Source of the DNA: Escherichia phage vB_EcoM_4HA13
Direction: 5' to 3' (one strand)
Sequence record: NC_049466.2
Length of the DNA stretch: 52,401 bases
Below are positions 2,364-25,663 of the stretch, piece after piece. Each line of letters opens with the position of its first letter. The first letter of the stretch is position 1. Below the pieces are notes generated by a model. That model saw only the letters and a program-made list of their open reading frames with translations. It was not told the origin of the DNA and ran no database searches. The translations under genes and the position numbers were made by a program.

Positions 2364-2417
2364 CAACTAGTGCCAAGGATGGCGCATCAGTTGGAATAAA
2401 CTTAATAACAAAATCAA

Positions 2418-2630
2418 TTGGAGCATATAATGAACATTCAGCAAATCAAACAAATCGAAAACTGTTTCAACCCTCACCACGTTTGTAGCATGGACGACTT
2501 GTCCCGACCTACAGTTGATGAGACAAAAGACTTCTTAGAGTTGTTGGCAGAATACAAACAAGATTCGCATGTACTATTGCACGCATTCTTACACAACTCA
2601 GGATATTTTGATACAGAAATACCATTCTAA
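2418..2630 (+). CDS. Hypothetical protein
   Basis: ATG with GGAG RBS; followed directly by a terminator hairpin. Confidence 0.5.
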   Translation: MEHIMNIQQIKQIENCFNPHHVCSMDDLSRPTVDETKDFLELLAEYKQDSHVLLHAFLHNSGYFDTEIPF

Positions 2631-2634
2631 TATT

Positions 2635-2660
2635 GGGAGCTTCGGCTCCCTATTCTTGTT
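2635..2660 (+). terminator. Intrinsic terminator candidate (GGGAGC-UUCG-GCUCCC hairpin then U-rich tract)
   Basis: Perfect 6-bp stem with UUCG tetraloop followed by tattcttgtt. Confidence 0.55.
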
Positions 2661-2700
2661 CCAATTAATCTCAGAGCTGTGTTCAATATTGGAACTCAAC

Positions 2701-2723
2701 TGTGACATTAGTTGAAATTGAAG
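2701..2723 (+). promoter_or_regulatory. Conserved motif copy P1 (GACATTAGTTGAAATTGAAG)
   Basis: Same core ACATTAGTTG as the other copies; about 45 nt after the terminator. Confidence 0.45.
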
Positions 2724-2740
2724 TAACAGAATACGGAGAA

Positions 2741-7386: not shown

Positions 7387-7719
7387 ATGTATGTTTACTA
7401 CGAAACTTACAAGTATCCAGGAGCATTCTACACTCACAGAATTACCGTGTATGAAAATGCTAATGGACGTCTACGTGCGGTACTCGAAGCTAAGTATGGA
7501 CATAAAGCTGTGTCTTGGAATAAAAGGACAGGGCGATTCTATGTTCGTGAAACTTTGCGAATTGCCAGAGTACATAAAAACAAGCCACGAAACAGTCGCA
7601 CGAGACACTTCGGTGAGTGGCACTTTGCGACGTCGAGAAACTTTGCCTTATCAATATTTGCATCAATCGACGGAGAATATGGCGAACAAACAATTTCTAG
7701 AACACCAGAGTCCTATTGA
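7387..7719 (+). CDS. Hypothetical basic protein
   Basis: ATG at 7387 after GAGGA; chosen over the overlapping alternative frame 7391-7909 because it fits the downstream gene start. Confidence 0.4.
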   Translation: MYVYYETYKYPGAFYTHRITVYENANGRLRAVLEAKYGHKAVSWNKRTGRFYVRETLRIARVHKNKPRNSRTRHFGEWHFATSRNFALSIFASIDGEYGEQTISRTPESY

Positions 7720-7784
7720 ACGGCACATGAATCAGTTTGGTTGCACACGCCAAGAGGCCAAAGATGCAACATTTGGAGAAAGAT

Positions 7785-8183
7785 ATGGCAGCATTAAAAT
7801 ACTCGAAGGGCGCGAAGCTCCTAATAGTGAGCATATTTATCAGTATTGTGGTCTTGATTTCGGCCATCTGGAACGTCGCCTCAGCGTCTTCTGGATTGAT
7901 GACGTATAAATGTGGCGGATGGACTGCTGTAATTGAGCAGCGAGAAGAAGGCCCACTTGTGGCCTCTTTCCTGCCAGAAGTTGGAACGTGGGTTGAAATT
8001 CCAGTGAACGACCGTAGTGGTGATGACATGAATTTGTACTTCATGAGTATCGAAACTCAGAAACTCGCTGTGATGGGAGTAAACGCAAAGAATCAGATAT
8101 TCTTGCAAACATTCCGCAATCATCAGGCATACAAACTCAACAAACTTGAGCACTCATTGCTCTGTAAGAGAACGCATGGCTAA
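7785..8183 (+). CDS. Hypothetical membrane protein
   Basis: ATG with GGAGAAAG RBS; hydrophobic helix LLIVSIFISIVVLISAIW. Confidence 0.45.
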   Translation: MAALKYSKGAKLLIVSIFISIVVLISAIWNVASASSGLMTYKCGGWTAVIEQREEGPLVASFLPEVGTWVEIPVNDRSGDDMNLYFMSIETQKLAVMGVNAKNQIFLQTFRNHQAYKLNKLEHSLLCKRTHG

Positions 8184-13134: not shown

Positions 13135-13471
13135 CAAAGTCACTTTGAATCCCATTCCTAATTGGAGTGGGCTTCAATTTGTGCATAATCCAAACACCAT
13201 TACATGAGCTTTCGACGGTAAGCAATGTTGGGAAATTTGTTGTGTACAAATTGAAGTAGTTTTCTGAGTCTTACGACGGGCCTAAACTGCCTGAAGTTAT
13301 TGTGACTGTTTTATTCATTTAAAATAAATGCAAACGATTCTGAAATGCGTGTAGCAGCTTAATTAAATTTAAGAAGCTCTCCGTGGTCTTTCGATTCCAT
13401 GTAAACAAATTCGACGCATTGTGTCTCCGTGATGTGATTAATAAAACGGAGTTCAAATTAAAGAGGTATCC

Positions 13472-13903
13472 ATGAACAAGTTAACAGCCTATAACATTGC
13501 AAAGTTGAGGTCTGAAATAAATTGGACTGTAGACAAAGATGGCTACAGGTGTGCTACTGTAAATGGGTACACAGTCAGGAGGCATATATTAAACTTTTAC
13601 ATAAAGTTTGGTTGGCTGCCTGAATATGTAGACCATATTGACAATACTCCAGGAAATGATTGGCCTGAAAACTTAAGAGCAGCAACCGCATCACAAAATG
13701 CCTGCAACTCTAAAATAAGGTCAGATAACACTAGCGGTGTTAAAGGAGTATCTTGGGATTCCTCAAGAAACAGATGGAGAGCAAGAGTAAAGGTCAATGG
13801 CCAAACTCAATCAGTGGGAAGATTTGAGACAATCGAAGAAGCCACAGAAGCTATCCATTCTGCAAGAAAGGTTCTACACAAACATTTTGCCCGCTGTGAT
13901 TAA
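13472..13903 (+). CDS. Free-standing HNH homing endonuclease with AP2-like DNA-binding domain
   Basis: HNH core VDHIDNTPGNDWPENL...SQNACN; AP2-like GVKGVSWDSSRNRWRARVKVNG; codon usage is AT-rich compared with neighbours. Confidence 0.65.
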   Translation: MNKLTAYNIAKLRSEINWTVDKDGYRCATVNGYTVRRHILNFYIKFGWLPEYVDHIDNTPGNDWPENLRAATASQNACNSKIRSDNTSGVKGVSWDSSRNRWRARVKVNGQTQSVGRFETIEEATEAIHSARKVLHKHFARCD

Positions 13904-14015
13904 TAATGGGGCATACTTCAATGAGTGTCTTATTATTAGAGTTGGGAGGTAGGTCGATGCCCAAGCTCGTGGCCCAGATAGGGCACTCTTTGAAGTATTC
14001 TAATTTGGAGAAGTT

Positions 14016-14312
14016 ATGAAAGTTGTAGACGATAACAAAGTTGACAAGGTTGACGTTTTAAGCATTGCTTTGGGTGATTGTTTCGAAGCCAACGATATGG
14101 TATTTCTGCGTATTGTGGAAGTTGAAATGATGCATCTGACAGACGGTGTAACATTGCGCAATGTTGTTGGAACTCGAGTGGAAGATGGAACATATTTCTG
14201 CATTCCTGACTACACTCCAGAATCAGTAAATTCAAGAATGGTTAAACCAGTGTGCGCCAACGTGGTAATTACTGGTAATCCTAAACTTGTGGATTTGACA
14301 AAGGTCGAGTAA
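14016..14312 (+). CDS. Hypothetical protein
   Basis: GGAGAAG RBS. Confidence 0.5.
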   Translation: MKVVDDNKVDKVDVLSIALGDCFEANDMVFLRIVEVEMMHLTDGVTLRNVVGTRVEDGTYFCIPDYTPESVNSRMVKPVCANVVITGNPKLVDLTKVE

Positions 14313-14444
14313 GCAAGTTGCCTGAGAAATAGGATATTCTGGACCATCAATCCGCTGGCAATACAGGCACTTAATAAGTGTGTCTATCCTAATTCTACAA
14401 GCCTCGCAGTTTTCAGTCTGCGATATCAAAACTGTCCAAACAAC

Positions 14445-14545
14445 GTCTGCTGGACTCCGAATTGTAGCGGAGGTATTGGGTACGTCCATCTGCCTCGCAG
14501 ACAATACCAATATGTCACCGGGTTCAAGTCCCGGAGCAGGCACCA
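14445..14545 (+). ncRNA. tRNA-like element (acceptor stem, T-arm, encoded ACCA); not a canonical cloverleaf by eye
   Basis: GTCTGCT pairs with AGCAGGC; T-arm CCGGG-TTCAAGT-CCCGG; ends ...AGCAGGC-A-CCA. The region between D-arm and T-arm is about 45 nt, too long for a standard tRNA. Confidence 0.3.
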
Positions 14546-14748
14546 AACAATAGGGATTTCCATGTATGCTGTCAAATGTTGCAACGTTTCTGACAGTGGT
14601 AAGATGGCCTCAGAAAGAAAGTATAAGTATGCAGAACGGTTCGATTCCGTGAATCCCTCCAAATTAGGTGCAGTACCTGTTACGACGACAAGCTCAGATA
14701 ACGCAAAAGGTTCGTATCACACTGCACCATTCTATTACAGGAATTACA

Positions 14749-15003
14749 ATGAGCATTAAATCAATTTTAGTTGGTATTGGTGCATTCATTGCACTTCTGT
14801 TTGCAGCATTCTTCAAGGGACGTTCCAGCGGAAAGCAGGAAGTTCAACGAGAAGTTGTCAAAGAGCAAACGAAAGCTGTTGAGGAGGTTGCTCAAGAGCG
14901 AGTAGAAAATGTTAGGGTGGCTAACCGTGTTCTACAAGAAGTTGTTATATCTAGCGATACAAAAGTTGATAAGGAACTCAACGACGAGTGGACGAGAGGA
15001 TGA
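14749..15003 (+). CDS. i-spanin (Rz-like)
   Basis: N-terminal TM helix then a charged coiled-coil-like region; directly followed by a lipoprotein gene. Confidence 0.5.
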   Translation: MSIKSILVGIGAFIALLFAAFFKGRSSGKQEVQREVVKEQTKAVEEVAQERVENVRVANRVLQEVVISSDTKVDKELNDEWTRG

Positions 15004-15233
15004 AGAAATCTTACGCGCCTATTGTTGGTATTCTTGGTATCCTTTTGATTTCGTGTTCGACACCGAGCGTGCCTCCAAACAAGTTAGTAAATGGATATTG
15101 CGATATTGCAAGTCCAATCCTACTGCTGAAATCCGAAATTCCTTTGCTCTCATTGGGGAGCAAACAACAAGTTCTTGCCCACAATAAAATGTGGAAAGAA
15201 AAGTGTTCGACGGAACTTACCCGACAAAAGTAG
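15000..15233 (+). CDS. o-spanin (Rz1-like outer-membrane lipoprotein)
   Basis: Signal peptide with lipobox LISC, Pro-rich mature part; ATGA overlap with i-spanin. Start could alternatively be the GTG at 14988. Confidence 0.5.
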   Translation: MKKSYAPIVGILGILLISCSTPSVPPNKLVNGYCDIASPILLLKSEIPLLSLGSKQQVLAHNKMWKEKCSTELTRQK

Positions 15234-16117
15234 TGACGTCAACAAATGGTATCAGCTAGACGGTGGTGTAAAAGACTGACCGTGGCGACGACGCCATATT
15301 GCTCTGGGCATAACAGTTGAAATTGCTGCCTCCTAGGATTGGAACGTCCCGCTACACATCGTTAGGGTGAGAAGGTTAGTCCACCGATACAAAGGCTTGC
15401 GGCTTACACCGGCCAAAGAAGAAAACGGTGTGCTTGAGAACGAAGCTCCGATGACCCCGTAAAGTCAACGTAATGAACACGAGACGTTCAGGTGTCCTCT
15501 TCCTAAAACAGAACGACGAGAACAAACTCGTAATCAGTTGCGGCAACGTGGTCCGGTCAAAGAACAATGAGCCACAGGTTTCCAAGCATCCGTAAAAGCA
15601 TGGCGTAGTTGACGCGTTAAGCACGAATAGCCCACGTTACGGGCCACAGAATTTGGAACTTGGTATCTGTAATGCGTCGTATTACGAATCATGAAAGCCG
15701 CACATAAGAGTGTGTAGACACATGGACTTAATAGAGGCAGATAAAATAACCAAGTTCCATACCGAAAACCTCCTGCTGGTTATTCTTCCAGATTAATAAA
15801 AGAAATAAGAAGCGTCTGGCATAGTGTAGCGATACACCTTAGTTGCGCTGATTGTGAAGTGTCGAAAAGGTTTCGGCCTGTTTGGGTTTCTCCTCATCCC
15901 GAAGTTTGAGTAATCGACTACTCAATGTTCCTAATCACATGAAATATGCAAGGCAGGGTTCTTGATAAAGTTTACTAATTCTTTATCAGGCGGGTTTAGC
16001 GATTTTCCCGGAAGGTCTCCCATAATGCGGAATTGTATATTGACTAAGCCGAAATAAATATACTCAGTTTCCAGTCTGAACAAAACTGGAATCAAATTAA
16101 CTTTAACTGGAGTTGTT

Positions 16118-16387
16118 ATGAACAGAAATTACGAACTTGTTATCCCACCTGCACCACAGCCAGAAATGGTATTGCGTGATAAAATTGCTACAATTGTTTA
16201 CGAACAAATACTTGTAGACAATAAAATGCGGGATATTGTGTGTATTGATGAAGCATCTTTGAAACATATCTCAAAGGGTATCGCCAAGATTGCACATGAT
16301 TTTGCCGATGACTTTATGCGCGAACGTTATGAACGTATGTGTGTTAAAGCAACTGGTATTAACCTCGAAGATTTAGTAAAGAAATAA
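16118..16387 (+). CDS. Hypothetical protein
   Basis: GGAG RBS; first gene after the 884-bp non-coding island. Confidence 0.5.
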   Translation: MNRNYELVIPPAPQPEMVLRDKIATIVYEQILVDNKMRDIVCIDEASLKHISKGIAKIAHDFADDFMRERYERMCVKATGINLEDLVKK

Positions 16388-16422
16388 TGTAAAAACAAAT
16401 TTCAGTAGAACTCGTAGACCAT

Positions 16423-17040
16423 ATGGGTTCGGACTTAACAGCAGTTAATGCTGCACGAGTCTCTTATGGTGCGGAGTCTAAAACGCTAACAAAACGCGAC
16501 TCCCACCTTCTGTCGTTTCTGGCAGAACATGAGCACGTAACACCTTTCCGCCACGCAGCAGTAACATTACGCTGCAAAGCGCCAATCTTCTTGGCGCGAC
16601 AATTGGGCAAGCATCAGGTTGGCTTTAGTTGGAACGAGATTTCTCGCCGCTATAAAGATGGTGATGCAATCGAAGTTGAATGCTACGTTCCTGAGTATGT
16701 TATGGCACGTCCTGATAAACTTATGACTCAGTGTGCAAGACATATGCCAGCAGATATTGCCGACGAAATGCGCATGTATATAAACAATGCTGCTAAGTCA
16801 GCAGTTCGCGAATATCAGGCATTAATTGGATTTGGAGTTGCACCAGAGCAAGCTAGAATGGTGTTACCTCAATCAATGATGACTGAATGGATTTGGACTG
16901 GCTCTCTCTATGGTTGGGCATCCATGTACAATCAGCGTTCCACTGAACACGCTCAATATGAAGCTCGCCTGTTTGCAGAAGAAGTTTCAAAAGTCATGTC
17001 AGAACTTTTCCCAATTTGCTGGGCGGAGTTGATTAAATAA
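16423..17040 (+). CDS. thyX: ThyX-like flavin-dependent thymidylate synthase (tentative)
   Basis: N-terminal AARVSYG and an ...S-x-NE-x-S-RRY segment resemble ThyX motifs; the canonical RHR is not intact. Confidence 0.5.
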   Translation: MGSDLTAVNAARVSYGAESKTLTKRDSHLLSFLAEHEHVTPFRHAAVTLRCKAPIFLARQLGKHQVGFSWNEISRRYKDGDAIEVECYVPEYVMARPDKLMTQCARHMPADIADEMRMYINNAAKSAVREYQALIGFGVAPEQARMVLPQSMMTEWIWTGSLYGWASMYNQRSTEHAQYEARLFAEEVSKVMSELFPICWAELIK

Positions 17041-17054
17041 TTTAAGGAATAGAA

Positions 17055-18815
17055 ATGCTAATTAAACAGTGCGTTCTTAAAATGAAGCACGACCATCCCG
17101 ATTGCAAATCCACCAGCGGGAAGTCATTGCAGGTGTGGATTAACGAATCAGAAGATGGAAAGCGTTTCTATTCCGGCTTTTGTTTCGCATGTGGTGTTGC
17201 TGTTCCAAACCCTCTGGGAACTGACGAAACAAAGTTTCCTGAAATTAAAATTAAGACTCCAGAAGAAATTCAGGAAGAACTTAATGAAATTACTGGCTGT
17301 CCAGTATTTGATTTAGAACATCGTTCAATTGAACCGGAATATTGGGGCGCTGCTCGTGTTCGACTGTTATACTCTGAATATGACGGCAAGACTCCATACG
17401 CCCTTGCTCATGGTTTTACAAAAGCTGGCAAACTTGTTCGCTGGAAGATTAAGCTTCTGAACAAGAAAGTTATTTGGTCTGTTGGGGATACTCAGGATAA
17501 CGACCCATATAACTGGGAAGCTGCCAAAGCAATTGGCGGTAGAACATTGTATATCACAGAGGGTGAGGAAGATGCAATTGCACTTCGTCAAATTCTGAAA
17601 ACTGCAAGTGCAGGTGGAGCATATGCTGAGTTAGACTTCCCTATTATCTCATTAACAGATGGGAGTGATTCAGTTCATAAATCTTTGTCTGGCAAAATAG
17701 AGGAAATAAAGCAGCGTTGGGAACAAGTTGTCATTGTATTTGATGACGACGAACCTGGACGTAAGGCAGCAAAAGAAGCTTGCCGTTTAATTCCCGGAGC
17801 AATGATTGCAGCACTGCCAGCAAACGATGCTAACGACTGTCTTCGTCGTGGCATGATTAAGGCAGCACAAGCAGCAGTTGTGTTTCGTGCAGCTCGTCCA
17901 CTTCCTACAGCATTAGTTGATAAAGAACTACTGATGGATGAATTGGATGATGAAGTTGAAGAAGGTGTTGATTATCCGTGGAAGCGATTAACCGAACTCA
18001 TGTATGGCCAACGTCGTGGTGAAGTTATTACACTTGGTGGTTCTGAGGGTGGTGGTAAAACCACAATGGCTCGTCAGAATGCTGAGCATAATATTATTCA
18101 GCATGATTGGAGTGTATTCTCTGCATTTATGGAAGAAACGCCACAAGAAACTTTACGTCGAATGGCTGGATTGCACGACAACCTTCCGTATTGGGAACCA
18201 AACTTTAAATTTGACCCAAGATACGATGAAGAAAAGTTCAAACAAACTTCCCGTCGCATGTTGCAGAACATGGAAATTTGGGACCGTAAACTTGCTGGTG
18301 AAGACCCATATGAAACATGGGAAGGATTGAAGACAATTATTCGTCAGATTGGTCCAGATATTGATATGTTTATTTTGGATAACCTGACTTACTTGTCAGA
18401 AGGTATTTCATCAACTGAGAAGAACGATTTCTTAGGTAAGTTGTATGCGGATATCACCAAACTATCAGACCAATATCAATTCCATTGTCTAGTGTTGTCT
18501 CACTTAAACCCTGTTGCAAAAGGTCAGCGTCCACATGAGGATGGTGGTCGAATCAAGAAGGGTGACTTTACTGGTTCTCGTGCTGCTGCAAAATACTCTC
18601 ATGGTATGTTTGGCTTTGAACGAAACAGTCAGGCAGTTGACCCTAATTGCTCAATCATTCGTTCAATCAAAGCTCGTAAGAGTGGTAAGACCGAAGGTTT
18701 CAAAACGTACTACGATAGTGATTCAGGACGTATTATTCAGCGTAGCTGGGATGATAGCCTGTTCGAAACAAGAGAAATTGTCCAGTTAACCAAGAAGACT
18801 GGACCACATCAATAA
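17055..18815 (+). CDS. DNA primase-helicase (T7 gp4-like)
   Basis: N-terminal Cys cluster, TOPRIM-like TEGEEDAIAL, Walker A GGSEGGGKTT, Walker B-like DMFILDNL. Confidence 0.8.
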   Translation: MLIKQCVLKMKHDHPDCKSTSGKSLQVWINESEDGKRFYSGFCFACGVAVPNPLGTDETKFPEIKIKTPEEIQEELNEITGCPVFDLEHRSIEPEYWGAARVRLLYSEYDGKTPYALAHGFTKAGKLVRWKIKLLNKKVIWSVGDTQDNDPYNWEAAKAIGGRTLYITEGEEDAIALRQILKTASAGGAYAELDFPIISLTDGSDSVHKSLSGKIEEIKQRWEQVVIVFDDDEPGRKAAKEACRLIPGAMIAALPANDANDCLRRGMIKAAQAAVVFRAARPLPTALVDKELLMDELDDEVEEGVDYPWKRLTELMYGQRRGEVITLGGSEGGGKTTMARQNAEHNIIQHDWSVFSAFMEETPQETLRRMAGLHDNLPYWEPNFKFDPRYDEEKFKQTSRRMLQNMEIWDRKLAGEDPYETWEGLKTIIRQIGPDIDMFILDNLTYLSEGISSTEKNDFLGKLYADITKLSDQYQFHCLVLSHLNPVAKGQRPHEDGGRIKKGDFTGSRAAAKYSHGMFGFERNSQAVDPNCSIIRSIKARKSGKTEGFKTYYDSDSGRIIQRSWDDSLFETREIVQLTKKTGPHQ

Positions 18816-18924
18816 CAAAGAACTCCCACTGCATAGAGCTGGCTAACTTAGTAGTCGTCGGTAACTACCAGTGGGATTCTTCCTATTTAACCTGGAGCCT
18901 AAAGTGTTGTATCCGTGGGAAAAT

Positions 18925-20361
18925 ATGCAAGCCAGTGATATTGAAACTACTGGATTGCTGAAACAAATGAAAAAGCAAGCGAGTCCTCGTTTGCACAACT
19001 TTGGTTTCATCGATATGATGACCAAAGAAGAAACCGTTATGGAATGGACGGAACGGAAACGTATTCAAGATTATTTGAATACAGGACCAACACTTATCAT
19101 GCATAACGGCGCAACCTTTGACTTTGAAGCATTAAAGTTCTTAGGTTATGACGTATCTAAATGTACTCTGATTGATACTTTGTATCTAAGTTGGTACTTA
19201 GAACCTCGCAGACCTAAACACGGTTTGGAAAGTTACGGTGAAGAATTTGGTGTGCCTAAACCAGTCATTGAAGATTGGGAAAACCAAACTCAGGAAGAAT
19301 ACAACAATCGTGTACTGGAAGACTGTAAAATTCAGTCTCGCCTGTGGGAACAGCAGTACAGCCAACTGTTGCAAATTTATCGTTCACCACAAGAGGTAAG
19401 ACGTTTCGTAGAATACTTAATGACAAAAGCACGTCAACAAGTTATACAGCAACGCACCAAGTGGAAGTTGAATAAAGAAAAGGCTTACGCATTTAAGGCA
19501 ATGTTGGAACCAATGTTGCTTGAGAAAACTTCTGAACTTGAGAAGTCAATGCCGCGTATTGTTGAATATGCGCTCAAAAGCCAGCCAGCAAAAATGTACA
19601 AAATGGACAGAACTTTGTCTGCCGCTGGTATTAAATGGAAAGCTATTTGTGATGCAAATGGTTTAGATTTCCGTGACCCTGATGTTCAAATTAAGTACAT
19701 CAAAGGTTATAAAGAGCCGAATGCAAACTCTCACGTACAGCTTAAAGAGTGGCTGTTCAGTTTGGGTTGGGTTCCTCAAACATTTAAGTTTGACCGTAAT
19801 AAGGAAACTGGCGAAACTCGTCAGATTCCACAAATAACAATTAAGGATGAAGATGGTAATCCTGAGATTTGTCAAAGTCTTCATGACTTGGCTGAATCGA
19901 ATCCCGGAAAAGGTATTGAACATCTTATTGGCTTGGGCGTTTATAAACATCGTCTTAGTGTTGTCAACGGGTTTCTGCGCGATGTTGATGATGAAGGTTT
20001 CCTTACTGCACGTTGTGGTGGCCTTACTAACACTTTACGTCTCAAGCATCGTGAACTCGTTAACCTGCCTTCTATTCGTGTGTTTGGTGGTGCGGAACTC
20101 CGAGGAATGCTTGAAGCGCATTCAGAAGAATACGAACAACTAGGTTCGGATTTGTGTTCTCTGGAAGACCGTTGTAAGCACCATTATCAGTGGGCGTATG
20201 ACCCTGAATATGTTAAGAAGCAGTTAGCTGATGACTATGATGCACACTTAGCAATCGGTGTTATCGGTGGATTCATTACTGAGAAAGAATCTCAGGACCA
20301 CAAAGACGGGATTGCAAAATGTAAGCAACGTCCAATGTTCAAAACAACAAACTATGCGTAA
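18925..20361 (+). CDS. DNA polymerase, family A (T7 gp5-like), N-terminal part ending inside motif B
   Basis: Starts MQASDIETTGLL (compare T7 MIVSDIEANALL, Exo I); Exo II HNGATFDFEAL; ends ...KTTNYA at a stop inside motif B. Confidence 0.8.
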   Translation: MQASDIETTGLLKQMKKQASPRLHNFGFIDMMTKEETVMEWTERKRIQDYLNTGPTLIMHNGATFDFEALKFLGYDVSKCTLIDTLYLSWYLEPRRPKHGLESYGEEFGVPKPVIEDWENQTQEEYNNRVLEDCKIQSRLWEQQYSQLLQIYRSPQEVRRFVEYLMTKARQQVIQQRTKWKLNKEKAYAFKAMLEPMLLEKTSELEKSMPRIVEYALKSQPAKMYKMDRTLSAAGIKWKAICDANGLDFRDPDVQIKYIKGYKEPNANSHVQLKEWLFSLGWVPQTFKFDRNKETGETRQIPQITIKDEDGNPEICQSLHDLAESNPGKGIEHLIGLGVYKHRLSVVNGFLRDVDDEGFLTARCGGLTNTLRLKHRELVNLPSIRVFGGAELRGMLEAHSEEYEQLGSDLCSLEDRCKHHYQWAYDPEYVKKQLADDYDAHLAIGVIGGFITEKESQDHKDGIAKCKQRPMFKTTNYA

Positions 20362-21014
20362 ATTGATGCGCATATAAAATCCCTTTAATTCGGTGGAACT
20401 CTCTACCGCAGAGACAATACCGAGCGAAGCATGAAAAGAAATTACTCACCAAAGAAATGTCCTTGTGGAAATGTATTTATTCCGACAGGGCCAAGAAGTT
20501 CCAAGTGCAAACCGTGCTCTAAGATTGTTGAACAGGAATCGAGAGATAGGTCGTACATAAAACATTGCCTCAATACAGGTATTAACTGTGGTGCTGGCAC
20601 AGGAAACTTCGAACACGCAAAAGGTTCAGAAAGCAAGTGCTACTCTTCTGGCAAAGGAAATTATGTCCGTGCTAGAAAGGAAATGCTTGAAGACCTCAAG
20701 TGTTGTGAAAGGTGTGGAAAGAATCTAATAAACGTTCACTATACAAAGCGTGTGATTCATCATCGGGACCATGACAGAAGCAATAACGTAAGAAGTAACT
20801 TTGAGTTACTTTGCAAACGTTGTCACCAACTTCATCACGATTGTCACGATGCTTTCATGAACGTGTAACGACTAGCCGTAAGGCGTACATCCAAGTGGAT
20901 GGAAACGGGGGACCCGACGTTTGTCGGTGATGATATAGTCTGCTCTGCATGGTGACATGCAGCTGGATGAAATTCCGGCATAAGATTAACGAACTTATGT
21001 GAACAATGTAAATG
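20360..21014 (+). mobile_element. Probable group I intron carrying an HNH endonuclease ORF, inserted in DNA polymerase motif B
   Basis: Flanking ORFs split motif B (KTTNYA / QYGAG); GACTA at 20870-20874 can pair with TAGTC at 20936-20940 (P7-like); hairpins with GNRA loops (GCC-GTAA-GGC, TGCATG-GTGA-CATGCA). Exact splice sites are inferred. Confidence 0.55.
20431..20868 (+). CDS. HNH homing endonuclease (intron-encoded)
   Basis: Cys-rich zinc-finger segments plus HHRDHDRSNN...LLCKRCHQLHH. Confidence 0.7.
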   Translation: MKRNYSPKKCPCGNVFIPTGPRSSKCKPCSKIVEQESRDRSYIKHCLNTGINCGAGTGNFEHAKGSESKCYSSGKGNYVRARKEMLEDLKCCERCGKNLINVHYTKRVIHHRDHDRSNNVRSNFELLCKRCHQLHHDCHDAFMNV

Positions 21015-21493
21015 GTCAATATGGTGCTGGTGTTGCAACTGTAACTCGTTCTGCTAAATGCGATTTGGCAACTGGTGCACGACTGCATAAAGCATATTGG
21101 GACTTGAACTGGTCCATCAAAGAGATTGCAGCTAATACAGTTGTTAAGACAGTTGATGGTCAGATGTGGCAGCAGAATCCAGTAAATAAATTCTGGTATT
21201 CACTCCGCACTGAGAAAGACCGATTCTCTACTCTGTGTCAGGGCACTGGCGCATATGTGTTTGATATCTGGTGTAACAATATTATCGCAATCTGCAACGA
21301 ACGTTATGGATGCGACCCACTCCTTTCTGGTCAGTTCCACGATGAATTGATTTTGCAAGTGAAGAAAGGGTATCGTGAATTGTGGACGGCACTGTTGCAT
21401 GAAGCGATGGAACGTACCAACAAACAACTTAAACTCAACCGTGATTGTGCATGTGATGTTCAATTCGGTGATAATTATTCAGAGATTCACTAA
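20999..21493 (+). CDS. DNA polymerase, family A, C-terminal part (motif B second half and motif C)
   Basis: Begins ...NGQYGAGV and contains FHDELILQV. GTG start with no obvious RBS, consistent with being an exon that in a spliced model would begin near 21015. Confidence 0.75.
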   Translation: MNNVNGQYGAGVATVTRSAKCDLATGARLHKAYWDLNWSIKEIAANTVVKTVDGQMWQQNPVNKFWYSLRTEKDRFSTLCQGTGAYVFDIWCNNIIAICNERYGCDPLLSGQFHDELILQVKKGYRELWTALLHEAMERTNKQLKLNRDCACDVQFGDNYSEIH

Positions 21494-21747
21494 TGGCACA
21501 GAAAGTTTTTGCGTTTTATGACGTGCAAGAAAACCGCCTACATATGTTTGTAGCAAATGCTGAACAAGCTGAAAATGATGCTGTAAACCAATTTATCGCA
21601 GCAAATGTAGATGAATTCTTTACTACTTCAAATCTGGAACAGGCTGAGAAATTGCAGTCTGTTATTTCTGAAACAACCTCCACCGACGAGCTGAAATCAG
21701 CATTAGTTGGATGGGACTTCCAACTTGAAATGATTCAAGTGGATTAA
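21493..21747 (+). CDS. Hypothetical acidic protein
   Basis: ATGA overlap with polymerase end; contains a promoter-motif-like copy at 21701-21711. Confidence 0.45.
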   Translation: MAQKVFAFYDVQENRLHMFVANAEQAENDAVNQFIAANVDEFFTTSNLEQAEKLQSVISETTSTDELKSALVGWDFQLEMIQVD

Positions 21748-21773
21748 TTAACTGTAACTCAAAGGTAACTAAA

Positions 21774-22637
21774 ATGGCATTTGATGCTCCTACTCTGGCC
21801 TCCAACAAAGCCCCTTCTGCTGCGCCATTACTGGAAGCGGGTGGCTATCCTGCTCGCGTTTGTCGTATCATCGACTTAGGCTGGCAACCGGGTTCTGCAA
21901 AGTATCCACAACCTCAGCTTAAATTGCTGGTGACTTTCGAACTTCTGAATGAGTACATGAAAGAAGTTGATGGTGAAGGCAAAATCATCATGGTCCAAGA
22001 CCCGGACGAAGATGACGGTGTTCTGATGGGCAAGAACTTGGAAGACAAGCCACGTTGGTTTGACTTTGAGTTCAGTTACAACTCCGATGGCTACATGGGT
22101 GACAACTCTCACATCTACAAATTTGCGAAAGCAATTGATGCAATGGAAGTTGCGCCAAATCTGGAACAAGGTGTTCAAGGTCATCCGGCTAAGAAACTTA
22201 TTGAATGGCTTGGCGAACCACTGACCGTTGGTCTTGACCAGTACCAGAGAAAGTCTGGTAAGAATGCCGGACAAATGGCAAACAAAATTATTACGTTTGC
22301 ACCAATGAAGTCCAAAGAGAAGCGCGAAGCGAAAGAACTGGTTAACCCAACTGTGTTCTTCGACATGAGCAACCCTGACCTTGAAGTGTTCAACAAACTT
22401 CCAGGCGGTGAGTCTCCATTTGCAATCAAGAACCGTATCACCACTGGTCCGAAGTTTGCCGAATCAAAACTGTCTGCATTGATTGGCGGTAAGCCAGTTG
22501 ATACTGCAACGCCGAATCAGGCGTCAGAAGAACAGGTTGACGAAGCGATGCAAGCAGAGTTGGAAGCACAGAAGCAAGCTCGTGAAGCAAATGCTGCTGC
22601 AAATGCAGAAGGTGCCACAAGCAACATTCCGTTCTAA
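21774..22637 (+). CDS. Putative ssDNA-binding or replication accessory protein with acidic C-terminus ending IPF
   Basis: Sits in the replication module; acidic tail ending ...SNIPF like SSB-family tails. Confidence 0.4.
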   Translation: MAFDAPTLASNKAPSAAPLLEAGGYPARVCRIIDLGWQPGSAKYPQPQLKLLVTFELLNEYMKEVDGEGKIIMVQDPDEDDGVLMGKNLEDKPRWFDFEFSYNSDGYMGDNSHIYKFAKAIDAMEVAPNLEQGVQGHPAKKLIEWLGEPLTVGLDQYQRKSGKNAGQMANKIITFAPMKSKEKREAKELVNPTVFFDMSNPDLEVFNKLPGGESPFAIKNRITTGPKFAESKLSALIGGKPVDTATPNQASEEQVDEAMQAELEAQKQAREANAAANAEGATSNIPF

Positions 22638-22644
22638 TTAAGTT

Positions 22645-22670
22645 GGCTCCTTCGGGAGCCCATTTTGTAT
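22645..22670 (+). terminator. Intrinsic terminator candidate (GGCUCC-UUCG-GGAGCC then U-rich tract)
   Basis: Perfect 6-bp stem, UUCG tetraloop, followed by cattttgtat. Confidence 0.55.
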
Positions 22671-22757
22671 AAATAGGAACGAATATGAACAAATACACCC
22701 ATCATACAAACCAACACTTTTCACCGTTTCCAAAACTAGCTCATCCTTGAGGTAAAC

Positions 22758-23306
22758 ATGTCAGAACTTAAACAGTACCAAAGCCATAAACTGGTGTGGG
22801 CAGCACCGATGACTCTAGGTGAGTTCAAAGAACACGCCAATAAACCAGATCTAATTGGTGACCAAGGCAGTGAAGGCTATCTGGTGGTGTACTCCAAAGA
22901 CACCCCGGAAGAGTATCACTCCTGGTCACCGAAAGGTGTGTTCGATGCCGGTAATACCGAAGTCGAACCATATCTGGTAGAGCTTATCAGCCGTGCTGCA
23001 CACTCTGCTAATCGTGGTTACTGCCAGTCGCTGGGTGACTTCTCTCAAGTTTCCTGGGACGAAGCACCGGAATGGCAGAAAGAGTCTGCCCGTGCTGGCG
23101 TCCGTTTCCATCTGGCAAACGACGTTACCCCGGAGCAATCCCACGAAAGCTGGCTGGCTGCTAAAGAAGCCGATGGCTGGAAGTATGGCCCGGTCAAAGA
23201 CGCAGAGAAGAAAGAGCATCCTTGCTTCCTGCCTTATGCCGACCTACCAGCCTATCAGAAAGCGAAAGATTTTATCTTTAAGTCTGTCGTAGACGGCTTT
23301 AAGTAA
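22758..23306 (+). CDS. RyR-domain-like protein (tentative)
   Basis: C-terminal GWKYGPVKDAEKKEHPCFLPYADLPAYQKAKD resembles the RyR repeat consensus. Confidence 0.45.
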   Translation: MSELKQYQSHKLVWAAPMTLGEFKEHANKPDLIGDQGSEGYLVVYSKDTPEEYHSWSPKGVFDAGNTEVEPYLVELISRAAHSANRGYCQSLGDFSQVSWDEAPEWQKESARAGVRFHLANDVTPEQSHESWLAAKEADGWKYGPVKDAEKKEHPCFLPYADLPAYQKAKDFIFKSVVDGFK

Positions 23307-23346
23307 TAACGAGCGGAAGCTCGTTGGATAAATGGAGAAGCATTAA

Positions 23347-24375
23347 ATGGCAAGTAAGAAAAGAAAACTTCTGCTTATTGATGGTGACATGATTGCTTTT
23401 AGTCACTGCGCTGCAGAAGAATATGGAAAGGAGTCTGAGGATATCAGTTTCTCCAAAATACAAATGTCAATGGACTCCAAAATGAAGTTCTTGACAGAAC
23501 GACTTGGCGCAACTGATATAATCACATTTATTTCCGGTGATGAAAACATGCGCCACGTAATCTTCCCTGAATACAAGTCAAACCGTGATGGTGTTTGGCG
23601 TCCAGAGAACTTGAGAAATGCGAAAGCTCACCTTCTTGTTGCATGGAATGGTATGAAGGTTGAAGGTTTGGAAGCAGATGACTTACTTGCATGTTTCGCC
23701 CGTCATAAATACGAAATCGAAATGGGCAAACGTAATGTTGTCAAATCTTTAATTGATATTGGACCATGTGATTACGATGAAGTCATCATTGCCTCTCTGG
23801 ATAAAGACCTTCGTCAACTCAGCCAATTCGGGACAAACGGTCCGGTCATTAAGCACTACCAATGGGAACGTGAGTCTCAGGGTATTGGTGAGAAAATTGT
23901 AATTCCAAAAGATTACGGTGAACTCAAATGCATTATCAAAGATACTGGCAAAACGAAGAAGAAAGAAGTTAAGGGCGATGGTCCTAAATTCTTCCTGCAT
24001 CAACTCTTAATTGGTGACAGCACTGATGGAGTTTTGGGGTGCGGTATTCGTGAACTTAAGGTTTATAAATCTGGTGCCAAATGTGGTCAAGAGTATTATA
24101 AACGTGATGGTGTCGGTGCTGTTGAATCATTCGAACTTCTTGACAAAACAACTTCATATCCCGAAGGTTTGAAGAAAGTTATCGGCGCATACATTATACG
24201 ATTCGGTGACGCTTGGGAAGAAGAACTTCTCAAGAATGGACGACTTGTTTACATGCACCATCAAATTGATGAAGGTCGTTACGTTCGACTGTGGCATTAC
24301 AAAGGTGGAATCATTGACCGATTCGACCTGAAAGAGAAACGTGTTATTCCTCATGCAGAGTATCTCCAAAAGTAA
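23347..24375 (+). CDS. 5'-3' exonuclease, FEN family (T7 gp6-like)
   Basis: LLLIDGDMIAF, YKSNRDG, IASLDKDLRQL and IGDSTDGVLGCG align with T7 gp6 segments as recalled. Confidence 0.75.
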   Translation: MASKKRKLLLIDGDMIAFSHCAAEEYGKESEDISFSKIQMSMDSKMKFLTERLGATDIITFISGDENMRHVIFPEYKSNRDGVWRPENLRNAKAHLLVAWNGMKVEGLEADDLLACFARHKYEIEMGKRNVVKSLIDIGPCDYDEVIIASLDKDLRQLSQFGTNGPVIKHYQWERESQGIGEKIVIPKDYGELKCIIKDTGKTKKKEVKGDGPKFFLHQLLIGDSTDGVLGCGIRELKVYKSGAKCGQEYYKRDGVGAVESFELLDKTTSYPEGLKKVIGAYIIRFGDAWEEELLKNGRLVYMHHQIDEGRYVRLWHYKGGIIDRFDLKEKRVIPHAEYLQK

Positions 24376-24386
24376 TTGGAGCATCA

Positions 24387-24905
24387 ATGTACGGATATTG
24401 CGGAACGGAAGCCAAGTTTACAGCATGGCTTCAATCGGCATTGAGGGCTGTTTGGACTAAACATCCAAGCAAGCTCTCGTTAGTACAGAGCAGACGTGTT
24501 GCATTGAAAGTGGGACCAAAGGCCAAGCCAATCTTCCATATTCAATGCTTCCATTGCAAGAAATTGTATAAGTTGAAAGAGATTGAAGTTAACCACAAGA
24601 CGCAAGTTGGTGGTCTACTCAAGCTCGAAGACCGTTACAGATTTCTTGACAACCTGCTACTGGTTCAGCCGGAAGATTTGGAATTACTTTGTCATGAATG
24701 TCATGGTATTGTCACGTACATGGAACGTTATGGCGTATCCAGACGTGAAGCAATTATCGAGAAGAAGTGCATTGCCTTCTCGAAATTAACAGATGCTCAG
24801 CAGATTGCCAAGTGCAAAGAAGCAAAGTTTGCTGAGATTCCCAAAACCAAAATCGGACGCAAGAATATGGTTCGAGAATATTTAAGAAAGGTTCTACCAC
24901 AGTGA
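24387..24905 (+). CDS. HNH-family endonuclease-like protein
   Basis: CFHCKK...EVNHK...LLCHECH pattern. Confidence 0.45.
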   Translation: MYGYCGTEAKFTAWLQSALRAVWTKHPSKLSLVQSRRVALKVGPKAKPIFHIQCFHCKKLYKLKEIEVNHKTQVGGLLKLEDRYRFLDNLLLVQPEDLELLCHECHGIVTYMERYGVSRREAIIEKKCIAFSKLTDAQQIAKCKEAKFAEIPKTKIGRKNMVREYLRKVLPQ

Positions 24906-25663
24906 CAATTAAAACTTTGGCTGACGGAACTTCTTACACGAAGGCGCATGCCCATGATTGGGAAGACCCGGACTGTACAATTAAAGGCCGTGTCAAAATC
25001 TACCGAAAGATTGACGGCATTCGAGCTATTCGTAATAAAATTGGTGATGTATGGAGTCGCAATTCTAAACCTCTCCCGCACTGTGACCATCTCAACTTCC
25101 AAGATGCCGAAATCTTTCGCAATTCTTGGAACGAGACTTCATCTATCCTTGGACGTATTGACGCACCGACAGTTGCGTTAACCCAAGAAAACGTTTACGA
25201 ACTTCGTGACGGTTTTATAGACCCACGTCTGTACATCGGTTGGGCAGATAATCCAAGCAATGAAAACTTGGAGGCTCTTATGCACAAGTACATTGCGCAA
25301 GGTGATGAAGGTCTGATAGTAAGGGTGGAGCATAAAGGCAAAGTCCTCTGGTGGAAAATAGTTCCGTATAAATATGCCGATGTTATTATAACAGGTTTCA
25401 AAGAAGGGACCAATAAGAACAAAGGTAAATGCGGTTCAATTGCTTCCAATTGGGGCAGTGCTGGCTCTATGGTAGAAGATTGTTTGCAAGACCATAATAT
25501 TAAAGGTGATGCAAACATTCGTACATGGCTATGGCAAAACCGTAACTCATTGATTGGTAAAGTAATGCAGGTTCGCTACCGTGAAAAGACGGAAGCTGGC
25601 AAGTTACGTTTCCCGTCTTTAGTTCGATTGAGAACCGATAAGAATGAAGAGTCATTCGATTAA
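24902..25663 (+). CDS. ATP-dependent DNA ligase
   Basis: Motif I KIDGIR at a T7-ligase-like position; GTG start. Confidence 0.65.
   Translation: MTIKTLADGTSYTKAHAHDWEDPDCTIKGRVKIYRKIDGIRAIRNKIGDVWSRNSKPLPHCDHLNFQDAEIFRNSWNETSSILGRIDAPTVALTQENVYELRDGFIDPRLYIGWADNPSNENLEALMHKYIAQGDEGLIVRVEHKGKVLWWKIVPYKYADVIITGFKEGTNKNKGKCGSIASNWGSAGSMVEDCLQDHNIKGDANIRTWLWQNRNSLIGKVMQVRYREKTEAGKLRFPSLVRLRTDKNEESFD

What the first reader, a model, noticed from the sequence alone, without database searches (positions are those of the whole stretch)
13472..24905. Several HNH endonuclease genes, one with atypical codon usage
Besides the intron ORF there is a free-standing HNH-AP2 gene at 13472-13903 with visibly AT-rich codon choice and an HNH-like gene at 24387-24905 between the exonuclease and ligase. 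These look like selfish insertions and mark likely recombination hot spots.
Basis: partly seen in the sequence, partly recalled or inferred. Interest (0 to 1): 0.35.

Follow-up and report, generated by a model that had tools for sequence, protein, structure and literature searches.

The report
Three HNH genes, only two selfish

Summary
The window is a Chaseviridae-type myophage genome. All three ORFs exist at the stated coordinates and all three are HNH nucleases, but they belong to unrelated subfamilies with different status.

- **ORF1 (13472-13903):** a free-standing HNH_3+AP2 homing endonuclease gene. It lies in a ~444-bp cassette that is absent from the same intergenic site in most relatives. 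Its codon choice is atypical (AGA/AGG/ATA), but its GC3 is not unusually AT-rich.
- **ORF2 (20431-20868):** sits in a 655-nt group I intron (20360-21014) related to the T4 td intron. The intron splits motif B of the DNA polymerase. Close relatives are intronless, or carry the same intron with the ORF deleted.
- **ORF3 (24387-24905):** not a selfish insertion. It is present in 79 of 79 relatives at the same position and is 81-86% identical in four relatives, as conserved as the polymerase. It also follows the 5'-3' exonuclease in distant phages (PAK_P3, Boevelstad) and lies close downstream of it in ICP1. Real homing-gene sites beside it are empty in this window.

The finding is ordinary: new members of known kinds. 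The more interesting item is a side observation. ORF1 sits at the 3' edge of a conserved RNA-like element carrying an SsrA-like tag frame (ANDSEMRVAA) that varies almost only at synonymous third positions.

The parts
13472..13903 (+). ORF1: free-standing HNH_3 + AP2 homing endonuclease gene (143 aa), with a strong Shine-Dalgarno sequence (AAAGAGG) upstream
   Evidence: Pfam HNH_3 and AP2 above cut-off; phrog_99 at 3e-45. Best phage-database homologues are only 49-53% identical. The identical protein occurs on 7 metagenome contigs. Codon choice is atypical.
13445..13888 (+). Inserted cassette carrying ORF1, defined against empty-site alleles; the last five codons and the stop of ORF1 lie in the resident hairpin to its right
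   Evidence: Faunus, phiA050 and L024 align up to 13444 and resume at 13887-13889, with the same ~18-22 bp matching both sides.
13420..13446 (+). Left copy of a conserved hairpin with loop GTGATTAATAA (similar to the L035 allele)
   Evidence: The stem sequences differ between relatives while pairing is kept.
13889..13912 (+). Right copy of the same hairpin (Faunus/L024-type allele), identical over 22 nt to the single copy in phiA050
   Evidence: EaPF9's HNH gene ends in the same 32 nt (96.9% identical).
18925..20359 (+). DNA polymerase (family A) exon 1, ending ...AAC TAT GCG T
   Evidence: tblastn with the uninterrupted Faunus polymerase, 82% identity; junction read.
20360..21014 (+). Group I intron (655 nt), related to the T4 td intron, with the ORF in the P6 loop. 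U precedes the 5' splice site and the intron ends in G.
   Evidence: Intronless relatives read AACTATGCTTGTCAATATGGT across the site. Rfam Intron_gpI scores 26.3 bits here and 55.6 bits (above gathering) for the ORF-less allele in L026. Bases 20932-21005 are 92-93% identical to the 3' core of the T4 td intron.
20431..20868 (+). ORF2: intron-encoded HNH endonuclease (145 aa)
   Evidence: phrog_25862 at 3.7e-24. 85.5% identical to the ORF in the same intron of E. coli phage BSBP01; all others <=43%. Deleted in L026.
21015..21493 (+). DNA polymerase exon 2, starting GT CAA TAT GGT. Splicing restores TGT (Cys) in N-Y-A-C-Q-Y-G (motif B).
24387..24905 (+). ORF3: conserved core HNH (His-Me finger) nuclease of the replication module (172 aa); not a mobile gene
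24905..24934 (+). Empty homing-gene site: ORF3/ligase junction, where relatives L026-L029 carry a 156-aa HNH_3 gene or its remnants
27940..27946 (+). Empty homing-gene site just upstream of the terminase large-subunit gene, where L026 carries a 166-aa HNH-AP2 gene

Best explanation
The region holds three unrelated HNH nucleases with three different roles.

(1) ORF1 is a free-standing homing endonuclease gene of the HNH_3+AP2 type. The inferred mechanism is as follows. In a mixed infection the enzyme nicks or cuts the allele that lacks it, near the conserved GTGATTAATAA hairpin. Recombinational repair from the ORF1-bearing genome then copies the ~444-bp cassette together with some flanking sequence. 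This would explain the duplicated hairpin and the mosaic flanks.

(2) ORF2 is the homing endonuclease of a td-like group I intron inserted in the codon that corresponds to E. coli Pol I residue 764 (motif B). The intron must splice out of the mRNA to give a functional polymerase. The enzyme would target intronless polymerase alleles. The ORF-less copy in a close relative shows the expected decay stage of the homing cycle.

(3) ORF3 is a vertically inherited core gene. It is a zinc-binding HNH nuclease that is genetically coupled to the T7 gp6-like 5'-3' exonuclease. The inferred role is endonucleolytic cutting of branched or host DNA that the exonuclease then processes. That would be a role analogous to T7 endonuclease I or T4 endonuclease VII, filled here by a different protein family.

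Shown: domain content, insertion boundaries, presence/absence, intron identity, and conservation and synteny of ORF3. Inferred: every enzymatic activity and target.
For: ORF1: domains. Exact empty sites in Faunus, phiA050 and L024. HNH genes absent after the hairpin in L017, L019, L021 and L034-L040. Paralogues at other sites in Pel53, L018, L019, L022 and L026. Atypical AGA/AGG/ATA codon choice.

Intron: exon junction restores NYACQYGAG. Homology to the T4 td intron. Rfam 55.6 bits for the ORF-less allele, which is near-identical in the ribozyme parts. Intronless close relatives. Intron-bearing alleles share GCG|TGT CAA, whereas the ~98% identical intronless L010 reads GCT TGC CAG. The G at -2 is what lets AUGCGU pair with GCGCAU in P1.

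ORF3: 79 records at >=60% identity, the same number as for the primase/helicase. 81-86% identity, at least as high as its neighbours. Invariant CxxC...NH...N...CxxCH motif. Confident model, pLDDT 91.5. It follows the exonuclease directly in Boevelstad, after two small ORFs in PAK_P3 and after three ORFs in ICP1, at 27-37% identity. No other resolvase-type nuclease is annotated in relative PYps23T.
Against: No activity was measured for any of the three proteins. ORF1's closest homologues at the neighbouring site are only ~50% identical, so its history could be old insertion followed by many losses rather than recent homing. The 7 contigs with an identical ORF1 protein were selected for identity, so their purely synonymous differences are not an independent test. 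The window's intron scores below Rfam's gathering threshold (26.3 vs 50 bits) because of the ORF insertion. For ORF3, the endonuclease VII-like role rests on synteny and a weak fold hit (Foldseek E 0.09, TM 0.27-0.29). The profile comparison with T4 endonuclease VII is negative (probability 1.5%). ORF3's codon fit is somewhat low (z = -2.8).
Confidence: 0.8

Rival explanations
1. One reading: all three HNH ORFs, ORF3 included, are selfish insertions that mark recombination hot spots.
For: All three have below-average codon fit (z = -3.9, -3.05, -2.8). In relatives, genuine HNH homing genes do sit right next to ORF3.
Against: ORF3 is present in 79 of 79 relatives, at the same position in the annotated ones inspected. 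It is 81-86% identical in four relatives, and no degraded copies were seen. It is also linked to the exonuclease in distant phage families. Against the closest relatives, the major identity breaks do not coincide with ORF1 or ORF3.
Confidence: 0.07
2. ORF3 is an anciently domesticated homing endonuclease kept as a weapon. It would cut the DNA of competing phages or of the host at specific sites, rather than act on replication or recombination intermediates.
For: It is a classical HNH with a zinc finger, like many homing enzymes. Intron endonucleases can mediate competition between phages (abstract of PMC11620839, listed). The PDB fold search gives no significant resolvase match.
Against: The conserved exonuclease-HNH gene neighbourhood across families points to a shared housekeeping function. 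There is no sign of presence/absence polymorphism.
Confidence: 0.15
3. ORF1 is no longer mobile. It would be a domesticated DNA-binding or nicking protein that acts on the neighbouring conserved RNA or regulatory region, and its patchy distribution reflects repeated loss.
For: Copies at the neighbouring site in EaPF9, Pel53, Papaline and L022 are only 48-53% identical, which suggests an old lineage tied to this locus. ORF1 reads into a conserved hairpin at its 3' end. It has an intact motif and a strong ribosome-binding site.
Against: Precise empty sites exist in several lineages. Paralogues are scattered at many other sites. The codon usage looks foreign. Some copies in relatives are degraded (92-aa AP2 remnant in L020; split HNH in L026).
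Confidence: 0.1
4. The polymerase is a genuinely split gene. The two polypeptides would assemble, and the intervening HNH gene would be a free-standing insertion rather than part of a splicing intron.
For: Exon 1 ends in an in-frame TAA and exon 2 has a possible GTG start. Rfam is below gathering in the window.
Against: The break lies inside a codon of motif B. The flanking RNA carries the td-like ribozyme core. The ORF-less allele passes Rfam's gathering score. P1 pairing and the terminal G are in place.
Confidence: 0.04

Closest known systems
Group I (IA2) introns with HNH endonucleases in phage family A DNA polymerase genes: SPO1/SP82 (I-HmuI, I-HmuII), Bastille (I-BasI), T7-like PhiI and W31 (I-TslI), Pf-WMP3 (I-PfoP3I)
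   Same: A self-splicing-type intron in a highly conserved part of a pol A gene, with an HNH ORF in the P6 loop and a sporadic distribution (PMC3428280).
   Different: The sites listed in PMC3428280 are Pol I positions 674, 676 and 881. This intron sits at the equivalent of residue 764 in motif B; that numbering is from my own knowledge of Pol I. The host is a Chaseviridae myophage. Aeromonas phage HJ05 seems to carry a related intron at a ...YG site. Splicing and cleavage were not tested.
T4 td intron with I-TevI
   Same: The 3' ribozyme core is 92-93% identical over 74 nt. The 5' and 3' ends are similar (AAUUGA......GAACA(U)AAUG). The ORF is in the P6 loop.
   Different: The host gene is the polymerase, not thymidylate synthase. 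The endonuclease is an HNH, not the GIY-YIG enzyme I-TevI. The ribozyme and the endonuclease gene have therefore been reshuffled.
Free-standing HNH-AP2 homing endonuclease genes of phages (PHROG 99; T4 mob-type behaviour)
   Same: HNH_3 plus AP2 architecture, intergenic insertion, presence/absence polymorphism, many paralogues per genome in relatives, foreign codon usage.
   Different: The insertion lies at the 3' edge of a conserved structured, non-protein-coding element rather than between two protein genes. It is flanked by two allelic copies of a hairpin.
T4 endonuclease VII (gp49) and T7 endonuclease I (gp3)
   Same: ORF3 is a small phage nuclease with a zinc-binding beta-beta-alpha-metal core and C-terminal helices. 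It is encoded in the replication/recombination module beside a gp6-like exonuclease. Some records name it 'endonuclease VII'. T4 endonuclease VII is the top PDB fold hit.
   Different: There is no sequence or profile similarity to endonuclease VII. The fold hit is not significant. ORF3 has the classical CxxCH rather than endonuclease VII's CxxCN. It is unrelated to the T7 gp3 fold. Membership is therefore not established; only an analogous role is proposed.
Nuclease genes at boundaries of genetic exchange between phages (PMC10448857)
   Same: The general idea that homing genes sit at mosaic junctions. Here ORF1's flanks combine different allele types, and silent changes cluster next to the intron site.
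   Different: Against the nearest relatives, the large identity breaks are not at ORF1 or the intron.

Membership tests
HNH_3 + AP2 free-standing homing endonuclease (ORF1) | HNH_3 nuclease domain above the curated cut-off | tested here: met
   PF13392, 28.1 bits against a cut-off of 24.8. The motif VDHIDN...NLR...SQN is intact.
HNH_3 + AP2 free-standing homing endonuclease (ORF1) | AP2 DNA-binding domain | tested here: met
   PF00847, 37.5 bits against a cut-off of 33.3.
HNH_3 + AP2 free-standing homing endonuclease (ORF1) | Presence/absence polymorphism at a defined site among related genomes | tested here: met
   Empty sites in Faunus, phiA050 and L024. No homologue near the site in L017, L019, L021 and L034-L040.
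HNH_3 + AP2 free-standing homing endonuclease (ORF1) | Site-specific cleavage of the empty allele and biased inheritance | not testable with these tools
   Needs enzyme assays and mixed infections.
Group I intron (Rfam RF00028), td-like IA2 | Covariance-model score at or above gathering | tested here: inconclusive
   The window scores 26.3 bits (E 1.6e-4), below the gathering score of 50, because the ORF is an insertion. The ORF-less allele in L026, whose ribozyme parts are near-identical, scores 55.6 bits.
Group I intron (Rfam RF00028), td-like IA2 | Removal restores the conserved reading frame exactly | tested here: met
   GCG T|GT CAA gives NYACQYGAG, as in the intronless Faunus and phiA050.
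Group I intron (Rfam RF00028), td-like IA2 | U before the 5' splice site in a U-G pair of P1; terminal G | tested here: met
   T at 20359. P1 pairs AUGCGU with GCGCAU in the Rfam alignment. G at 21014.
Group I intron (Rfam RF00028), td-like IA2 | Self-splicing | not testable with these tools
   Needs RT-PCR or in vitro transcription.
HNH / His-Me finger superfamily (ORF3) | CxxC...H...N...CxxCH metal and zinc motif | tested here: met
   C54, C57, N69, H70, N89, C102, C105 and H106 are invariant in 28 sequences. phrog_1985 at 1.6e-54. No Pfam model matches.
Mobile homing endonuclease gene (ORF3) | Sporadic distribution and degenerate copies | tested here: not met
   79 records at >=60% identity, the same count as for the primase/helicase. 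One place per record, same synteny in the annotated relatives inspected, 81-86% identity in four relatives.
T4 endonuclease VII family (PF02945) (ORF3) | Sequence or profile similarity to endonuclease VII | tested here: not met
   No Pfam hit. phmmer and profile searches of the PDB found nothing relevant. hhalign probability 1.5%.
T4 endonuclease VII family (PF02945) (ORF3) | Fold similarity | tested here: inconclusive
   1e7l and 1en7 are the top PDB hits, but with E 0.09-0.5, TM 0.27-0.30 and rmsd 11-12.5 A. Endonuclease VII is a domain-swapped dimer, which hampers monomer superposition.
T4 endonuclease VII family (PF02945) (ORF3) | Cleavage of Holliday junctions or branched DNA | not testable with these tools
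   Needs biochemistry.
tmRNA (SsrA), for the element 13249-13455 next to ORF1 | Tag reading frame without a start codon, ending in a hydrophobic ...AA plus stop | tested here: met
   GCA AAC GAT TCT GAA ATG CGT GTA GCA GCT TAA encodes ANDSEMRVAA*. Five third positions vary synonymously among relatives. In-frame stops lie 2-8 codons upstream.
tmRNA (SsrA), for the element 13249-13455 next to ORF1 | tRNA-like domain (acceptor stem with G3-U70, T arm, CCA) and detection by Rfam or ARAGORN | tested here: not met
   ARAGORN at its default threshold finds nothing. Rfam tmRNA_permuted scores 22.7 bits against a gathering score of 47, and matches only the tag region. No canonical T loop or G3-U70 was found.

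The most novel reading that the evidence does not exclude
ORF1's insertion site is the 3' hairpin of a conserved ~200-nt RNA gene (about 13249-13455) for which I found no report and which I saw only in Chaseviridae-type genomes and contigs. The element carries an SsrA-like tag frame, ANDSEMRVAA-stop, with no start codon. Among relatives the frame varies almost only at synonymous third positions. If this is real, these phages encode their own trans-translation-type tagging RNA in a form that lacks a recognisable tRNA-like domain. Two odd ~100-nt tRNA-like genes with encoded CCA ends lie about 1 kb downstream. The HNH-AP2 gene would then be a homing element that targets a structured RNA gene and has duplicated its 3' hairpin.
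Probability: 0.3. Interest if true: 0.75.

Novelty: new member of a known kind. Interest (0 to 1): 0.33.

Why it matters
As stated, the finding is routine phage biology. Homing endonuclease genes and polymerase introns are common, and here they are new examples.

Three practical points follow:
- The polymerase must be annotated as one spliced gene.
- ORF3 should not be labelled a homing endonuclease. The 'endonuclease VII' label that some records give it is also unsupported by sequence.
- The exonuclease-HNH gene pair, conserved from Chaseviridae to Pseudomonas and Vibrio myophages, points to an uncharacterised core nuclease that is worth a biochemical test.

The set of close relatives also gives a neat natural series of the homing cycle: an empty site, an intron with ORF, and an intron with the ORF deleted.

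The side observation of an SsrA-tag-like RNA at ORF1's insertion site could matter more, if confirmed. It would be a phage-encoded tagging RNA of unusual form.

Tried and rejected
- **Whole-window RNA scans.** Rfam at gathering threshold and ARAGORN found nothing in the window. The intron only appeared with the E-value threshold and through its T4 td similarity.
- **PDB searches.** Direct PDB sequence searches for the three proteins gave nothing useful. A profile search with the ORF3 family gave only a chance hit.
- **ORF3 as endonuclease VII.** Tested by hhalign and Foldseek; not supported by sequence and inconclusive by fold.
- **Recombination break at the intron.** I expected a sharp break because BLAST showed 93.9% identity before and 86% after the site. 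A gene-level alignment shows the polymerase is 94-100% identical to L010 throughout. The drop lies downstream of the polymerase gene.
- **Synonymous-only differences in ORF1.** They are seen among 7 contigs, but these were selected for protein identity, so I rejected this as evidence of selection.
- **Other HNH genes.** A search of the window with 21 HNH proteins from relatives found none besides ORF1, and no cross-hits among the three ORFs. ORF 7391-7909, which has the worst codon fit, has no Pfam domain.
- **tmRNA idea.**
  - ARAGORN at a relaxed threshold calls 'permuted tmRNA' with the ANDSEMRVAA tag in five relatives, but its tRNA-domain assignments are inconsistent.
  - Synthetic joins of the tag element to the downstream tRNA-like element were not recognised.
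  - Duplex prediction between them is no better than for shuffled sequence.
  - blastn against E. coli genomes shows no ssrA homology.
  - A proposed terminal helix (AUUGAAGU with ACUUCAAU) holds in Faunus/L024-type alleles but not in DE15-type alleles.
  - The motif at the 5' end of the tag element is not a repeated promoter.

Full report
**What the window is.** The 52.4-kb window has almost all its long ORFs on the + strand. It encodes a T7-like RNA polymerase, ThyX, a primase/helicase, a family A DNA polymerase, a 5'-3' exonuclease, a ligase, a dUTPase and myovirus structural genes. Its nearest database relatives are Chaseviridae (Cleopatravirinae): Aeromonas phage phiA050, Erwinia phage Faunus, and E. 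coli phages ST32 and Mangalitsa, at about 77-79% nucleotide identity over part of the region. Much closer relatives exist as metagenome contigs, at 94-98% identity over long stretches.

**Check of the observation.**
- ORF1 (13472-13903, 143 aa) passes Pfam's cut-offs for HNH_3 and AP2.
- The intron ORF (20431-20868) is a canonical CxxC...HH-D-H...N...CxxCH protein. It is below the Pfam cut-off but matches PHROG 25862 at 3.7e-24.
- ORF3 (24387-24905, 172 aa) has no Pfam hit. It matches PHROG 1985 'HNH endonuclease' at 1.6e-54. Its motif C54xxC57...N69-H70...N89...C102xxC105-H106 is invariant in 28 homologues.

The three proteins do not hit each other. All 21 HNH proteins taken from relatives hit only ORF1 in the window. 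The window therefore has one free-standing homing-type gene, one intron-borne one, and ORF3.

**Codon usage.** I compared each of 62 genes with the pooled usage of the others. ORF1 has GC 0.400 (genome 0.428). Its GC3 is 0.345 (mean 0.376, sd 0.055; rank 19 of 62), so 'visibly AT-rich' is not borne out as a compositional outlier. Its choice among synonymous codons is strongly atypical (z = -3.9, among the four worst). All 12 arginines use AGA or AGG (2.2 expected) and none uses CGT (7.0 expected). ATA is used 4 times against 1.0 expected. The intron ORF shares the AGA excess (z = -3.05). ORF3 deviates less (z = -2.8) and towards G/C-ending codons.

**ORF1 is a mobile cassette.**
- Faunus, phiA050 and contig L024 align with the window up to 13444 and resume at 13887-13889. 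The same ~20 bp of these relatives matches both edges.
- That sequence is a conserved hairpin with the loop GTGATTAATAA. The window has two copies, at 13420-13446 and 13889-13912, of different allelic types. ORF1's last five codons and its stop lie in the right copy.
- The inserted unit is therefore about 13445-13888, and it has its own strong ribosome-binding site.
- No HNH gene follows the hairpin in DE15, PYps23T, L017, L019, L021 or L034-L040.
- Pel53 and L022 carry a 48-53% identical HNH-AP2 about 200 bp upstream, on the other side of a conserved element. Papaline carries a 49% identical one in the same interval after the 119-aa gene.
- EaPF9's copy (52% identical) ends in the same 32 nt as ORF1.
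- Relatives hold up to five or six HNH(-AP2) genes at other sites, some of them degraded.
- The exact ORF1 protein occurs on seven independent metagenome contigs.

All this fits a free-standing homing endonuclease gene. Cleavage and homing themselves are inferred.

**The polymerase intron.**
- The uninterrupted Faunus polymerase aligns to 18925-20358 and to 21017-21493.
- Intronless relatives read AAC TAT GCT TGT CAA TAT GGT. The window reads AAC TAT GCG T / 655 nt / GT CAA TAT GGT, so removing 20360-21014 restores N-Y-A-C-Q-Y-G-A-G.
- This is motif B (K-x-x-N-F/Y-x-x-x-Y-G), and the split codon corresponds to Pol I residue 764. That numbering is from my own knowledge.
- Bases 20932-21005 are 92-93% identical to the 3' core of the T4 td intron, and the intron ends are td-like.
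- Rfam's group I model spans 20350-20962 at 26.3 bits, with the ORF as an insertion.
- Contig L026 has the same intron with the ribozyme parts near-identical but ORF codons ~3-110 deleted between short ATGA.AGAAG repeats. It scores 55.6 bits, above gathering.
- BSBP01 has the intron with an 85.5% identical ORF.
- L010 and L011 carry the identical ORF1 protein and a polymerase 94-100% identical in nucleotides, yet they are intronless.
- Intron-bearing alleles share GCG|TGT CAA, where L010 has GCT TGC CAG. The G at -2 completes P1 (AUGCGU with GCGCAU, with the U-G pair at the splice site). Six silent differences cluster in the 90 nt downstream, against one in the 60 nt upstream. This is compatible with co-conversion, but it is a small effect.

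Known polymerase intron sites listed in PMC3428280 are 674, 676 and 881. This one differs, but polymerase genes are the commonest phage intron targets (PMC11878797), so this is a new example of a known kind.

**ORF3 is a core gene.**
- tblastn finds it once per record in 549 phage records. Seventy-nine of these are at >=60% identity, exactly the number that hold the primase/helicase at >=60%.
- In the annotated relatives it is always between the exonuclease and the ligase.
- Its identity to phiA050, Faunus and PYps23T is 86, 81 and 83%. The corresponding figures are 71, 70 and 77% for the exonuclease and 82, 72 and 76% for the ligase.
- At 27-37% identity it recurs in Pseudomonas phages PAK_P3 and Boevelstad and in Vibrio phage ICP1, again downstream of the 5'-3' exonuclease in the replication module. 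It directly follows the exonuclease in Boevelstad, and two and three small ORFs intervene in PAK_P3 and ICP1.
- The AlphaFold model is confident (pLDDT 91.5). It matches predicted structures of viral HNH proteins well (TM up to 0.83).
- In the PDB the best hit is T4 endonuclease VII, but weakly (E 0.09, TM 0.27-0.29). Profile comparison with endonuclease VII is negative.
- No other resolvase-type nuclease is annotated in relative PYps23T.

I therefore read ORF3 as a housekeeping HNH nuclease coupled to the gp6-like exonuclease. It probably cuts branched or host DNA. The role is an inference, with roughly 0.45 confidence. That it is not a mobile insertion is well supported.

Genuine homing genes do occur right next to it in relatives. 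A 156-aa HNH_3 gene lies between ORF3 and the ligase in L026-L029, and an HNH-AP2 gene lies before the terminase gene in L026. Both sites are empty in the window, at 24905/24934 and 27940/27946.

**Recombination.** The region is mosaic everywhere. Against L010 the identity blocks run 96.7%, none, 93%, 85%, 94%, 86% and 96%. ORF1 lies inside a 96.7% block, and the polymerase is uniformly similar. The flanks of ORF1 do combine allele types found in different relatives. The 'hot spot' idea, which is a published generalisation (PMC10448857), is compatible with the data but not specifically demonstrated here.

**Side observations.**

1. *SsrA-tag-like element.* The conserved 'non-coding' element left of ORF1 (about 13249-13455, 88-90% identical to DE15 and Pel53) contains GCA AAC GAT TCT GAA ATG CGT GTA GCA GCT TAA, which encodes ANDSEMRVAA-stop. 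This resembles the E. coli SsrA tag ANDENYALAA.
   - Across 17 distinct sequences of the element, the variable positions in this frame are third positions and synonymous: AAC/AAT, TCT/TCC, CGT/CGA/CGC, GTA/GTT/GTG, and GCA/GCG/GCT/GCC. The exceptions are Faunus (ANDSEMRMVA) and one contig with a nonsense change.
   - There is no start codon, and in-frame stops lie 2-8 codons upstream.
   - The stop codon sits in a hairpin, and two further hairpins show compensatory changes.
   - ARAGORN at a relaxed threshold calls a permuted tmRNA with this tag in five relatives, but inconsistently. Rfam is sub-threshold, and I could not find a tRNA-like domain.
   - An exact-pattern scan of viral contigs found the tag only on seven contigs, six of them 52-54 kb as in this family. 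No paper in the library links tmRNA and Chaseviridae.
   - This remains unexplained.
2. *tRNA-like elements.* Two tandem ~100-nt tRNA-like elements with encoded CCA ends lie at 14446-14544 and 14553-14661. The first sits in a 152-nt stretch that is 96.7% identical to Faunus. Both fold into cloverleaf-like shapes with an over-long anticodon arm.
3. *RyR cassette.* Bases 22721-23326 (RyR-domain ORF, GC 0.506) are 91-94% identical to the unrelated Pectobacterium phages phiA41, CB3 and CB4 and to Yersinia phage TG1. The segment is absent from Faunus and L026.

**Verdict.** These are new members of known kinds, and interest is low to moderate. The tag-like RNA beside ORF1 is the item that deserves follow-up.

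Noticed in passing
window 13249-13455 (tag frame 13330-13362): A conserved element, immediately left of the ORF1 cassette, with no long ORF. It has an SsrA-like tag frame, ANDSEMRVAA-stop, with no start codon. Among 17 distinct sequences of the element the frame varies almost only at synonymous third positions. The stop codon lies in a hairpin. Relaxed ARAGORN calls a 'permuted tmRNA' in five relatives, but no tRNA-like domain could be found and Rfam is sub-threshold.
   Followed up: partly
window 14446-14544 and 14553-14661: Two tandem ~100-nt tRNA-like elements with acceptor stem, T arm (GGUUCAAGUCC / GGUUCGAUUCC) and encoded CCA, but an over-long anticodon arm. The first lies in a 152-nt block (14393-14544) that is 96.7% identical to Faunus, in an otherwise ~75% identical background. 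ARAGORN and Rfam do not call them in the window. Relatives have odd tRNA calls in the same region.
   Followed up: partly
window 22721-23326 (ORF 22758-23306): A RyR-domain gene with the highest GC in the region (0.506; GC3 0.508). It is 91-94% identical in nucleotides to unrelated phages: Pectobacterium phiA41, CB3 and CB4, and Yersinia vB_YenM_TG1. It is absent at this site in Faunus and replaced by another gene in L026. L010 has a shorter version. It looks like a recently exchanged cassette.
   Followed up: partly
window 13925-14005, against DE15 (L009 1374-1437) and PYps23T: A ~65-80-nt conserved block (GGGAGGTAGGTCGATGCCCAAGCTCGTGGCCCAGA...) lies downstream of the tag element and hairpin in the window, Faunus and L024. 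In DE15, PYps23T, ST32 and L039 it lies directly upstream of the tag element. The order of the two blocks is thus permuted between relatives.
   Followed up: partly
window 14575-14547 (- strand): A good sigma-70-like promoter match (TTGACA, 17 nt, TATTGT) on the minus strand. It points into the highly conserved 14393-14544 block and a 104-aa minus-strand ORF (14546-14232), in a genome otherwise transcribed rightward. Faunus annotates a minus-strand ORF there.
   Followed up: no
L005 (Aeromonas phage HJ05, OQ594355.1) about 2400-3100: A 79-kb Aeromonas phage has a related td-like intron 3' core and a 37% identical HNH ORF between two unannotated halves of a gene. The downstream half starts ...GGTATGGGCTGG, probably the same polymerase motif B site.
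   Followed up: no
window 14016-14312: A 98-aa ORF just right of the ORF1 cassette has no homologue in the seven database relatives compared. It is present (1 aa different) in the contigs that share ORF1. It may travel with this variable region.
   Followed up: no
PP952070.1 'Staphylococcus phage Pel53': This record is a typical Chaseviridae genome, 77-78% identical in nucleotides to the window. Its host label, Staphylococcus hyicus, looks doubtful.
   Followed up: no
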